This document shows, piece after piece, positions 13,845-16,800 of a stretch of DNA of 64,000 nucleotides. Numbering within the stretch: the stretch's first letter is position 1; each line of letters opens with the position of its first letter. The position numbers are program-made. Where the stretch lies: assembly GCF_055900595.2 (NCBI RefSeq), contig NZ_CM148325.1; one strand, written 5' to 3'.

Positions 13845-16800
13845 TCTGGCTGAAACCACACCCGGAAAGATTCTGGTGTTGTGCTACAACATTACCCTGG
13901 CCAGTTATCTGCGGGAATGCATTGAGGCCAGAGGGCTGGCGTCACGGGTTACGGTATCTCATTTTCACAGCTGGTGTGCCTCAATGGCAAAACGCCACGG
14001 TATTCAGGTGACGGCAGACAGAGAAGAATATCCTGAGAAATGCTTCAGTGCACTGGAAGAGGCCGTGAACAGCGGAAAAATCACCCAAACCGGATATGAT
14101 GCTGTACTGGTGGATGAAGGGCATGATTTTGACAGTCGCTGGCTGGCCCTGATTGCCCGTCTGTTTGATAACGCATCCCGTTCACTGCTCCTGATGTACG
14201 ATGATGCCCAGTCCATTTACCGGCGGGAGCGGGCCCTGAACTTTTCTCTGGCCAGTGTGGGGATTCAGGCACAGGGACGCACTTCTGTCCTGCCGGTCAA
14301 TTATCGTAATCCGAAACGCATTCTGCACTTTGCTTATGCATTCTCCCGCGAGTATTTTGAAAAACATCAGAACCGTGAAATACCACTTGTTCAGCCACAG
14401 GCAGGCGGTGAAGAGGGTACAGAGCCGGAAATCCTGCATTGTGCTTCTGAACGTGATGAAGCCAGACAGGTTGCAGACTGGCTGGAGAAGCGCCATGCCC
14501 TGTGTGGTCACTGGAGTGATATGGCTGTGCTGTGTCCGACAGAGCGTTCAGCGAAACAATTGCAGGACGTTATGACACAACGCGGGGTGCCTTTTGCCAC
14601 CTGTTTTGACAGGGAAGGCAAGAAGGCATACTCGCGACGTAAGGATGTGGTGCATTTACTGACATATCAGAGCAGCAAGGGGCTGGAGTTCCCGTATGTG
14701 GCGGTTATCAATGCGTCTTTCGTTCACTCTGGTGCAGCGGATGAGTCTGAAGTGATTCCGGTGCTTTATGTGGCGTTCACCCGGGCAACCCGCGAATTAC
14801 TGGTGACCTGTTACCGTGAAAACAGTATCAGCCGCCACCTTGAGGATTTTGCATAATACCAGACCATTTCTTTATTCCGGGCTTTCACCATACTGTTATT
14901 ATCAGGTTTATTTAATTCGCCATGAACCCGTTATTTAACGATATTCAGATGCGTCTTTTTTATCTGAACCACTCTCCGTACTCCTGGCACTGGAATGTCA
15001 GATTCAGACCTCAGGAAGCCGTATATATTGGCAGCGATACCTGTCATATCACCATTACCTGTAATCAGTCTGGTTTTCATTTAACCCGGGACGGACAACG
15101 GGTATTCACTGAGCGTTATATCAGAAACCTTAATGAGCTGTTACCGGTTCTGAAACGGCGGTGGGATGTGACACCGGCAATCATCCGCGCAGTGGAATAC
15201 CTTTCCCGGGTACCGGTATCACACTGATGTTCTTTCCGTAACTGTTAATCATGATTTAATACAGCAACATTGAATCTGCCGATGACTTCTGAAGTGAAAC
15301 TGAAAACCGGTGGTGACCCCCGGTCATTACCGGATTATGCTGCCCTGCGTGATGAAATCAGCAAACTGACCCACCCGGCACGCCCGGATGTGGACTGGCG
15401 TCATGTGGAGACGCTCTGCCTGCGTCTGTATGAACACAATGGCGTGGAATTACAGACAGCATCCTGGTACACCATCGCCCGGATGCATACAACAGGGTTA
15501 AGTGGCCTGAATGAAGGGCTGGCTCTGATTGTGGCGCTGACCCGGCATCACTGGTCAGTGATGTGGCCGCTGAATACACACGCCCGGCTGGAAATTATTA
15601 CCGGTCTGTTCAACCGTCTGCAAAAAACGCTCCGGGCCATGCCACCGGACGACCGTGACAACCTGCCCCTGCTGTATCAGACCGAAACATTTCTGAAGGC
15701 ACTGAGTGACACACTGGCCCGGCACGAACTTAAACAGAGCAGTAAAGTGGCTTTACCGGAAGCCATGGTGAAGGGATATATCACCCGTCTGGAAAATCAG
15801 CCAGTGCAGGACGAAGCGTCGTCTCCGGTAACCCTTCCTGCTCAGGCACTCCGGTCTGATGCTCCGGATGTACAGGGACATCAGCCCCTGCCGCACTCCC
15901 GTCTGGTGTATGTTGTTTCTGAAACAAAAACAGAGCCCACATCCTCCCTTCAAAACTCCCCGCCCACGTTTCTGAAACCGTTTGTGACTGGTGTCTGTGC
16001 GGCATTGCTGGCGGTCTGCGTGGCCATTCCGGGATGGCAGTATCTGGCACAGCCATCACCGGCAGAGCAGCAACTCAGGGCGCTGCTGACACCACCACCG
16101 GATGTGCTTTCAGCAGACCAGATGACACAGCTCAGCAGAACACCCTCACTGTTAAATCATGCGTCAGAGTGGATAACCCTTTCCGGTCAACAGATAACGC
16201 GACTGACAGAATTACCCCTGGCATACAACCTGCAGTGCAGTGCGCAGCTACTGCAGCAACTGATGGTACTTTTCCCCGACAATCCCCGGGTACAGGAAAT
16301 GGTGGATAACTGGCAGAAGAGCGTAAGGAGTCGTGCGCTCCCGGAAGAGGCGATGACGGGCTGGAATGAAGGCATGACCCGCTTACAGCAGCTGGCTGAA
16401 CGCCTGAACCGTCTGGATGAACAGCGGGGAAAATACATGACGGTCAGTGAACTGAAAACGGAGGTGTTTGGCATCATGCAGGCTTTTAACCGGCACATAC
16501 CGGCAGAAGAGCGGTTACGTCGCTATGATGAAGCCCGTAACCAGAATGGCAGTGAACAGCAACAAAAACAGATGGAAAATGCCCTGATGGAACTGTTGAA
16601 CCGCTACTATTTTTTAACACGGAATAGTTGTGTGGATATATGAGAAGATATTTAACCTTTTGCAAGGTAATTTCCCTAAGGTGCGATAGGGTACAGAATA
16701 TTCTTTATTCTAGGATGGTTTTATTTTGTATGTTGGCAATTTCAATGAATATTTTACATTTAAGTATGGAATAAGGAGTGTTGAATGAAGCTTTCATCAT

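What the first reader, a model, noticed from the sequence alone, without database searches (positions are those of the whole stretch)
14922..16643. Two-gene module: small protein plus ImpA_N-like membrane protein without any T6SS context
The 457-aa protein carries a TssA/VasL-type ImpA N-terminal domain and a single central TM helix, but no T6SS structural genes are present in the window. It is wedged between a helicase and an OLD nuclease in a defence-rich stretch, so either it is a T6SS accessory orphan or the ImpA_N fold has been recruited to another role.
Basis: inference. Interest (0 to 1): 0.4.

Follow-up and report, generated by a model that had tools for sequence, protein, structure and literature searches.

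The report
Stranded T6SS accessory gene tagA
The membrane protein is tagA, a known accessory of the E. coli type VI secretion system that anchors the far end of the firing sheath, left here without its secretion genes because a contact-dependent inhibition locus replaced them; it is ordinary, not a new use of the fold.

Summary
Both ORFs are real: a 101-aa gene (14922-15227) and a 457-aa ORF (15270-16643, probable ATG start at 15282, 453 aa). [quoted passage not shown]

It is 92% identical to the intact ORF at the end of the EAEC 042 sci-1 T6SS cluster, at the position of EC042_4550 (TagA), with the same upstream genes. It is 99.7% identical in DNA to a copy in strain SC418 that follows a complete T6SS.

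In this window, homology to those clusters starts at 11074. The T6SS core is replaced by a cdiB/cdiA locus, so tagA is an orphan.

In 74 of 79 other Enterobacterales species, tagA homologues sit downstream of tssE.

The small gene is Escherichia-specific and lies 54 nt upstream of tagA even where tssE directly precedes it. It shows purifying selection and has no known fold.

Where tagA has no linked T6SS in E. coli it is often broken, which argues against an independent role.

Verdict: a known gene in a rearranged island, of low interest. Side observation: anti-phage genes recur on both sides of tagA.

The parts
14922..15227 (+). Small 101-aa gene; Escherichia-specific partner ORF lying 54 nt upstream of tagA
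   Evidence: - ORF confirmed; 95% identical to the EAEC 042 copy.
- dN/dS 0.072 against 042.
- Only 31 homologue clusters, all named ones Escherichia.
- No Pfam, NCBIfam or PADLOC hit.
- Found as tssE-small-tagA without the helicase in L014-16 and L107.
15282..16643 (+). tagA (T6SS-1 accessory gene, 453 aa); the ORF opens at TTG 15270 (457 aa)
   Evidence: - 92% aa identity to the intact 455-aa ORF at the end of the 042 sci-1 cluster.
- 99.7% nt identity to the SC418 copy.
- Pfam ImpA_N + VasL.
15303..15608 (+). ImpA_N domain of TagA
   Evidence: - Pfam PF06812, E 1.6e-17.
- PDB sequence hits to TssA chains 6hs5, 6rju and 6g7b.
15966..16049 (+). Single hydrophobic (membrane-anchoring) helix of TagA
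   Evidence: - Kyte-Doolittle maximum 2.16 at residues 229-256.
- AF2 helix at 232-255, preceded by a low-confidence linker at 173-231.
16185..16616 (+). VasL domain of TagA
   Evidence: - Pfam PF12486, E 3.2e-37, covering 2-146 of 147 profile positions.
- All-helical in the AF2 model, with no specific PDB fold match.
16571..16608 (.). Zone where homology with other E. coli loci ends, inside the last 12-24 codons of tagA; the variable downstream cargo slot starts here
   Evidence: blastn end points against 042, 32F4, A31, JE86, CFT073, L014, L019 and L022. Only SC418, which also carries OLD, continues at 100% identity.
13069..14856 (+). NERD + UvrD-type helicase (context); inserted between tssE and small/tagA in this lineage
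   Evidence: - Pfam NERD, UvrD and UvrD_C.
- PADLOC 'NERD+UvrD' candidate, 2.5e-139.
- Absent from the tssE-small-tagA arrangements in L014 and L107.
11709..12875 (+). GIY-YIG/T5orf172 protein, PD-Lambda-1 family (context)
   Evidence: - Pfam MUG113 and T5orf172.
- PADLOC PD-Lambda-1, 5.5e-89.
- 97% identical to the 042 gene that lies two genes downstream of tssE.
11073..11474 (+). 133-aa YdcA-family gene (context); first gene of the block shared with the T6SS-linked loci
   Evidence: - Homology to SC418 begins at window 11074.
- 88% identical to the 042 gene immediately after tssE.
3986..11050 (+). Contact-dependent inhibition locus that occupies the place of the T6SS core genes. It contains cdiB, an HlyC-like acyltransferase, a cdiA C-terminal part, a DUF596 immunity gene and an orphan toxin fragment.
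   Evidence: - Pfam ShlB/POTRA, HlyC and DUF596.
- PGAP names in matching genomes: hemagglutinin repeat and VENN pre-toxin.
- 28 complete genomes share this junction.
16785..18491 (+). OLD-family nuclease in the variable slot after tagA (context)
   Evidence: - Pfam AAA_15 + OLD-like TOPRIM.
- PADLOC Old, 1.5e-78.
- Other strains carry other genes here: Qat, KwaB-like/HamA or hypotheticals.

Best explanation
**Identity.** The 453-aa protein is TagA, the accessory component of the E. coli T6SS-1 (sci-1 type) machine.

**Published function (established knowledge).** In EAEC, TagA is membrane-associated and binds the long-form TssA cap. [quoted passage not shown]

**Inferred division of labour (by homology, not tested here).** The ImpA_N domain would contact TssA. 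The central hydrophobic helix would provide the membrane anchor. The VasL domain has no assigned role.

**The small gene (shown).** The 101-aa gene is an Escherichia-specific companion placed 54 nt upstream of tagA at the end of T6SS-1 clusters. Its role is unknown and it appears dispensable.

**This window (shown).** The T6SS core genes that precede this block in EAEC 042 and SC418 are absent. A cdiB/cdiA locus takes their place, with the junction at 11074. The helicase, GIY-YIG and YdcA-like genes between that junction and the small gene are insertions also present in the EAEC cluster.

**Functional status (inferred).** The module is a stranded T6SS tail. It can work only if the genome carries a T6SS-1 elsewhere, as strain SC407 does. 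Otherwise it is a recently orphaned gene that has not yet decayed.
For: **Orthology and synteny**
- In EAEC 042 the order is tssA, hypothetical, tssF, tssG, tssJ, tssE, 133-aa gene, GIY-YIG, NERD-UvrD helicase, 101-aa gene, then an intact 455-aa ImpA_N/VasL ORF.
- The window proteins are 92% (TagA) and 95% (small) identical to these.
- TssA is EC042_4540 (PMC6745524). RefSeq tags step by 5 per gene from RS24250 (tssA). The unused slot RS24300 therefore falls on this ORF, which fits EC042_4550.
- SC418 carries the same tail after a full T6SS at pheV. Its tagA is 99.7% identical in DNA to the window's.

**Architecture**
- The protein has the published TagA architecture: ImpA_N, a transmembrane region and VasL (PMC6745524).

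**Family context**
- 74 of 79 non-Escherichia species loci have tssE upstream of tagA on the same strand. In 36 of them the gap is 130 nt or less.
- Three further homologues were looked up individually. Two follow tssE directly. The third follows tssA with no other T6SS gene nearby.

**Small gene belongs with tagA**
- tssE-small-tagA occurs without the helicase in L014-16 and in SC407.

**Decay when orphaned**
- JE86-ST02 has both genes frameshifted.
- CFT073 keeps only a 3' fragment fused to a cdiB remnant.
- SC407's CDI-linked copy is truncated.
- O157 strains keep about 130 nt.

**Published function**
- PMC6745524, PMC6450956, PMC7896307 and PMC6730261.
Against: - No T6SS gene is present in the 64-kb window, and the rest of the genome cannot be seen. 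Whether TagA has a machine to serve here is unknown.
- tagA is intact in some CDI-context strains (the window, 32F4, A31). It is also intact in a helicase-tagA arrangement found on more than 100 contigs where tssE survives only as a remnant. Both could hint at retention without a linked T6SS.
- Near-full-length small+tagA DNA occurs in 436 complete genomes. Cognate-type tssA occurs in only 69 + 24 genomes at megablast sensitivity.
- The locus tag EC042_4550 for TagA comes from my memory plus gene counting. I could not find it in any paper I could read.
Confidence: 0.88

Rival explanations
1. The module has acquired a T6SS-independent job. For example, TagA (with the small protein) could act as a membrane anchor or sensor working with the adjacent NERD-UvrD helicase in anti-phage defence. 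That would explain why it persists in defence-rich islands without a T6SS.
For: - The helicase-small-tagA order is kept in CDI-context loci with tagA intact.
- Helicase directly followed by tagA, with only a tssE remnant nearby, is seen on more than 100 contigs.
- A NERD-UvrD helicase ends 26 nt before tagA in three other Enterobacterales loci (L049, L051, L073).
- The neighbours are bona fide or candidate defence genes: PD-Lambda-1, a NERD+UvrD candidate and Old.
- No promoter-like or terminator-like site separates the helicase, small gene and tagA.
Against: - Neither protein matches any of 5027 PADLOC models.
- Only 4 of 80 loci have the helicase next to tagA, whereas 74 have tssE.
- tssE-small-tagA exists without the helicase.
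- The helicase stays intact where small and tagA are broken (JE86-ST02), so the helicase does not need them.
- Orphan copies decay often.
- The window copy differs from a T6SS-linked copy by only 4 substitutions, so its intactness says little.
Confidence: 0.05
2. The small gene belongs functionally to the upstream helicase as a two-gene helicase system. It is only a neighbour of tagA by accident, so 'small + ImpA_N protein' is not a module.
For: - In the window, 042, SC418 and L017 the small gene directly follows the helicase, with a 65-nt gap in the window.
- In L017 the helicase and small gene remain while no tagA gene is called downstream.
Against: - In L014-L016 and SC407 the small gene follows tssE directly and precedes tagA, with the same spacing and no helicase.
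- In L019-21 the helicase is followed by tagA with no small gene.
- The helicase homologues next to tagA in other genera have no small-gene homologue.
Confidence: 0.07
3. The large ORF is a broken pseudogene, as RefSeq/PGAP annotation of the orthologous loci implies. PGAP lists three partial features there: ImpA_N, 'POTRA domain' and VasL.
For: PGAP marks the orthologous region as three incomplete pseudogene pieces in 042, SC418, NCTC9082 and others.
Against: - The reading frame is uninterrupted for 453-457 codons in the window, 042, SC418, NCTC9082, 32F4 and A31.
- The three PGAP pieces are all in one frame.
- dN/dS is 0.21.
- The AF2 model is confident across both domains.
- The 'POTRA' label probably comes from cdiB'-'tagA deletion chimeras such as the one in CFT073.
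Confidence: 0.02

Closest known systems
EAEC 042 TagA (sci-1 / T6SS-1 accessory protein; EC042_4550 by my recollection and gene counting; Santin et al. 2018, as cited in PMC6745524 and PMC6730261)
   Same: - 92% amino-acid identity over the full length.
- The same ImpA_N, hydrophobic helix and VasL architecture.
- The same four upstream genes: the 133-aa gene, GIY-YIG, NERD-UvrD helicase and the 101-aa gene.
- The same ibrA/ibrB genes further downstream.
   Different: - The tssB...tssE core genes that lie upstream in 042 are replaced here by a CDI locus.
- The last ~12 residues differ, because the variable downstream cargo (OLD here, two hypotheticals in 042) begins inside the 3' end of the gene.
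Vibrio cholerae TagA/VasL (VCA0121; 'TsmA', Schneider et al. 2019, PMC6745524)
   Same: A class B TssA-like protein: an ImpA_N domain followed by a hydrophobic membrane-localising region. It stabilises the extended sheath and prevents over-polymerisation.
   Different: - It is only a distant relative. The paper reports 19.3% identity between the V. cholerae and E. coli TagA proteins.
- I did not compare the sequences here.
- It is encoded inside an intact T6SS cluster.
TssA (long form, ImpA_N + VasJ; EC042_4540)
   Different: - The window protein has no VasJ C-terminal domain.
- It scores 83 and 40 bits against the two NCBIfam TssA equivalogs, whose cut-offs are 230 and 161.
- It has a hydrophobic helix and a VasL domain instead.

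Membership tests
TagA (T6SS accessory, ImpA_N + membrane segment + VasL) | N-terminal ImpA_N domain (PF06812) | tested here: met
TagA (T6SS accessory, ImpA_N + membrane segment + VasL) | Central hydrophobic / transmembrane region | tested here: met
   A single segment at residues 229-256, Kyte-Doolittle 2.16. AF2 helix at 232-255. True membrane topology was not tested.
TagA (T6SS accessory, ImpA_N + membrane segment + VasL) | C-terminal VasL domain (PF12486) | tested here: met
   Pfam E 3.2e-37, 128.2 bits against a cut-off of 27.3, near full-length profile match.
TagA (T6SS accessory, ImpA_N + membrane segment + VasL) | Orthology with the experimentally studied EAEC gene | tested here: met
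   92% identity and conserved gene order with the ORF at NC_017626.1 4884070-4885437. Assigning that ORF to TagA/EC042_4550 rests on counting from TssA = EC042_4540 and on memory.
TagA (T6SS accessory, ImpA_N + membrane segment + VasL) | Encoded in a T6SS cluster that has a long TssA (ImpA_N + VasJ) | tested here: not met
   - In this window no T6SS core gene is found.
- The feature is met in orthologous loci (042, SC418, NCTC9082, SC407).
- It is also met in 74 of 79 other species.
- This is a feature of context, not of the protein, and the rest of this genome is unseen.
TagA (T6SS accessory, ImpA_N + membrane segment + VasL) | [quoted passage not shown] | not testable with these tools
   Requires two-hybrid or pull-down assays and fluorescence microscopy. 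Known for the 92%-identical EAEC protein from the literature.
TssA (T6SS core cap protein) | C-terminal VasJ-type oligomerisation domain; score above the NCBIfam TssA equivalog cut-off | tested here: not met
   TIGR03362 scores 83.2 bits against a cut-off of 230.1, and TIGR03363 scores 39.8 against 160.85. Only the N-terminal region aligns.
Known or candidate anti-phage defence protein (PADLOC-DB) | Match to any PADLOC model | tested here: not met
   Zero families for both the small protein and TagA at E <= 0.01, while the three neighbouring genes hit strongly.

The most novel reading that the evidence does not exclude
The tail of the E. coli T6SS-1 cluster (helicase, small gene, tagA) survives as an intact unit after the secretion genes are lost because TagA and the small protein have a second, T6SS-independent role. 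One example would be tethering the NERD-UvrD helicase, or sensing envelope damage, in anti-phage defence. A related reading is that tagA's conserved body serves as the fixed recombination anchor of a defence-gene exchange site.
Probability: 0.05. Interest if true: 0.55.

Novelty: already known. Interest (0 to 1): 0.15.

Why it matters
The finding itself matters little. The gene is a close orthologue of a characterised T6SS accessory protein, and its lack of T6SS context comes from an island rearrangement.

It has three practical uses:
- It corrects a misleading RefSeq annotation pattern, in which an intact tagA is split into three 'pseudogene' pieces, one of them labelled POTRA.
- It shows that an orphan tagA is not evidence of a T6SS in a genome.
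- It documents that the two ends of tagA are recurrent homes for anti-phage genes in Enterobacterales. PD-Lambda-1-like GIY-YIG and NERD-UvrD helicase genes appear upstream. OLD, Qat, and Kiwa- and Hachiman-like genes appear downstream. This could be used as a landmark for finding new defence genes.

Tried and rejected
- **Split Gabija idea.** The helicase hits GajB models and OLD hits GajA models, so I considered a Gabija pair split around tagA. I rejected it for three reasons. OLD's best model is stand-alone Old (1.5e-78, against 6.8e-26 for GajA). The helicase's best model is a NERD+UvrD candidate. The helicase is also present in 042 and JE86-ST02 without OLD.
- **Enterobacter ORF between tssE and tagA.** I tested whether the ~156-aa ORF found there in Enterobacter and about 20 other species is a divergent version of the small gene. 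There is no sequence similarity (BLASTP E 3) and no Pfam family.
- **Locus tag EC042_4550.** I tried to document it from the literature. It is in no searchable paper or supplement, and Santin et al. 2018 is not held. The assignment therefore rests on counting from EC042_4540 and on memory.
- **Source genome.** I looked for the window's own genome among complete E. coli genomes so I could search it for a T6SS. The best matches were 98.6-99.1% identical, so it is not in the collection.
- **Operon structure.** The promoter/terminator scan between helicase, small gene and tagA found nothing above shuffled expectation, so operon structure is unresolved.

Full report
**Observation**

The two ORFs exist as described: 14922-15227 (101 aa) and 15270-16643 (457 aa from TTG). 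Every homologue begins at MTSEVKL, so the real start is probably the ATG at 15282, giving 453 aa.

The large protein has three parts:
- An ImpA_N domain at residues 12-113 (Pfam E 1.6e-17).
- A near full-length VasL domain (PF12486) at residues 306-449 (E 3.2e-37).
- One hydrophobic segment at residues ~229-256 (Kyte-Doolittle 2.16).

The protein is not TssA itself. It scores far below both NCBIfam TssA equivalog cut-offs.

The window contains no T6SS structural gene. tblastn with the core and accessory proteins of the EAEC sci-1 cluster finds only five 'tail' genes. Pfam scans of the other large ORFs agree.

The neighbours are defence-type genes:
- PD-Lambda-1 family GIY-YIG (PADLOC 5.5e-89).
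- A NERD+UvrD helicase (2.5e-139).
- A stand-alone OLD nuclease (1.5e-78).
- A type I restriction-modification system further on.

**What it is**

The window is an E. coli pheV-type island. The integrase, yqgA and speC lie at 48.4-53.2 kb.

[quoted passage not shown] 2019, PMC6745524). The window protein has exactly this architecture.

The decisive comparison is with EAEC 042 (NC_017626.1). There the sci-1 T6SS cluster runs tssB ... tssM, tssA, hypothetical, tssF, tssG, tssJ, tssE. It is followed by a 133-aa gene, a GIY-YIG gene, the NERD-UvrD helicase, a 101-aa gene and an intact 455-aa ImpA_N/VasL ORF. The window's five genes match these at 88, 97, 97, 95 and 92% amino-acid identity.

TssA of EAEC is EC042_4540 (PMC6745524). 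Counting genes places the ImpA_N/VasL ORF at EC042_4550. RefSeq tags step by 5 from RS24250, and the now unused slot RS24300 falls on this ORF. EC042_4550 is the tag I recall for TagA. I could not find the tag in any accessible text, so that last link is memory plus counting.

Strain SC418 has the same tail directly after a complete T6SS at pheV. Its tagA differs from the window's by four substitutions.

**Why there is no T6SS here**

Homology between the window and SC418/042 begins at 11074, which is the start codon of the 133-aa gene. To the left the window carries a contact-dependent inhibition locus: cdiB, an HlyC-like acyltransferase, a cdiA C-terminal part, a DUF596 immunity gene and an orphan toxin fragment. 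The T6SS core is absent.

Twenty-eight complete E. coli genomes share this CDI junction. CFT073 descends from the same arrangement. A deletion there joins cdiB (window 4422) to the 3' part of tagA (window 16170).

**Family context**

A scan of one genome per species returned 80 loci encoding TagA homologues of 39-47% identity, plus one E. coli-like contig.
- In 74 of the 79 non-Escherichia loci, tssE lies upstream on the same strand, usually behind tssM-tssA-tssF-tssG-tssJ.
- In 36 of them the gap is 130 nt or less.
- Two of three individually examined homologues (40% and 32% identity) show the same arrangement. The third follows tssA with no other T6SS gene nearby.

So tagA is by rule the last gene of this kind of T6SS cluster.

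**The small gene**

- Its homologues are confined to Escherichia: 31 clusters, with no Pfam, NCBIfam or PADLOC match.
- It is a real gene. There are 5 non-synonymous against 17 synonymous differences from 042, giving dN/dS 0.072.
- It goes with tagA, not with the helicase. In L014-16 and in SC407 the order is tssE, small, tagA, with the same 54-nt spacer and no helicase.
- It is dispensable. It is frameshifted in a widespread T6SS-linked lineage and absent from another arrangement. In 32F4 it has an early stop that removes the annotated start codon.
- Other genera have either nothing or an unrelated ~156-aa ORF at that position.

**Is the orphan doing something else?**

Evidence against an independent role:
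- In a spread sample of 40 E. coli hits, 7 of the 11 rows with 95% coverage or more are of one type. That type has 91% identity and aligns in two pieces. In its representative, JE86-ST02, both genes are disrupted.
- CFT073, O157 strains and SC407's CDI-linked copy retain only fragments.
- The helicase remains intact where small and tagA are broken.
- Neither protein matches any defence model.

Evidence that leaves the question slightly open:
- tagA is intact in the window, 32F4 and A31, all in CDI context. It is also intact in a helicase-tagA arrangement on more than 100 contigs.
- Near-full-length small+tagA DNA is found in 436 of 5426 complete genomes. Cognate-type tssA is found in only 69 + 24 genomes at megablast sensitivity.

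The window copy is almost identical to a T6SS-linked copy, so its intactness is best explained by recent orphaning. At least one CDI-context strain, SC407, carries a full T6SS-1 with its own small-tagA pair elsewhere in the genome. The source genome of the window is not among the complete genomes searched, so this cannot be settled for the window strain.

**Mechanism**

Established by the literature for the 92%-identical EAEC protein (PMC6745524, PMC6450956, PMC7896307, PMC6730261):
- TagA is membrane-associated and binds the long TssA cap.
- It arrests sheath polymerisation at the opposite membrane and holds the sheath extended.
- Its loss gives over-long, bending sheaths and reduced killing.

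Inferred here by homology: the ImpA_N domain contacts TssA and the hydrophobic helix anchors the protein. The role of the VasL domain is unknown.

**Verdict**

This is a known gene in a rearranged genomic island. Interest is low.

The side observations may be more useful than the finding itself. Defence genes recur on both sides of tagA across genera, cargo exchange breakpoints lie inside the 3' end of tagA, and PGAP's three-piece annotation of the intact ORF is an artefact.

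Noticed in passing
window 11073-14856; loci L047, L049, L051, L059, L062, L067, L070, L071, L073, L093, L096: The gap between tssE and tagA is a recurrent insertion site.
- A PD-Lambda-1-like GIY-YIG gene, often with the 133-aa YdcA-like gene, sits directly upstream of tagA (within about 100 nt) in 9 loci. These include Pluralibacter, Salmonella arizonae, Rosenbergiella, Serratia, Pantoea and Dryocola. Two further loci carry it about 1.9 kb upstream.
- A NERD-UvrD helicase ends 26 nt before tagA in 3 loci.
- Anti-phage-type genes therefore appear embedded at a fixed site inside T6SS clusters.
   Followed up: partly
window 16571-18491; L003, L007, L107, L006: The slot just after tagA carries different cargo in different strains:
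- OLD in the window and SC418.
- QatABCD in CFT073 and 32F4.
- KwaB-like and HamA-like genes in SC407.
- Two hypotheticals in 042.

Homology between strains ends 35-72 nt before the tagA stop codon, so each cargo supplies its own TagA C-terminal tail.
   Followed up: partly
L006 44070-45437; L001 20483-21844: RefSeq/PGAP annotates the intact 453-455-aa tagA ORF as three partial pseudogene features, with the middle one labelled 'POTRA domain-containing protein'. All three lie in one uninterrupted frame. This looks like an annotation artefact and it hides the experimentally studied EAEC tagA gene.
   Followed up: yes
L003 8657-9477 (CFT073) vs window 4422 / 16170: In CFT073 a deletion fuses the 5' part of cdiB (POTRA region) to the 3' VasL part of tagA. 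This shows CFT073 once had the same CDI-tagA arrangement as the window. It probably also explains the stray 'POTRA' label on tagA fragments.
   Followed up: yes
window 19508-21658: The ibrA-like PAPS reductase/DUF3440 gene is cut short by an IS3-family element (orfA 20475-20813, orfB 20840-21658). In SC418 and 042 the gene is a full 1233 bp and is followed by ibrB.
   Followed up: partly
window 6124-11050: The cdiA ORF in the window is only 1341 aa, starts at a GTG and overlaps an HlyC-like acyltransferase gene. It is followed by a DUF596 immunity gene and an orphan VENN/CT fragment (10496-11050). In related genomes cdiA is far longer (e.g. 6.9 kb in 32F4), so this copy may be truncated at its 5' end.
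   Followed up: no
L041 9471-9941; L083 9389-9877: About 22 of 79 species carry an unrelated ~156-162-aa ORF between tssE and tagA. It has no Pfam family and no similarity to the E. coli 101-aa gene. It could be a different lineage-specific TagA-adjacent accessory.
   Followed up: partly
L010 6371-9383: One 44%-identical homologue sits in a tssA-tagA pair with no other T6SS gene within 6 kb upstream. It lies next to AbiJ-like and Hachiman-like (HamA + helicase) genes. This is another case of tagA beside defence genes.
   Followed up: no
window 11631-11709: The GIY-YIG/PD-Lambda-1 protein aligns to the 414-aa 042 protein from window 11643. The first start codon after the preceding stop is the GTG at 11709, giving 388 aa. 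The usual upstream start may be mutated in this strain.
   Followed up: no
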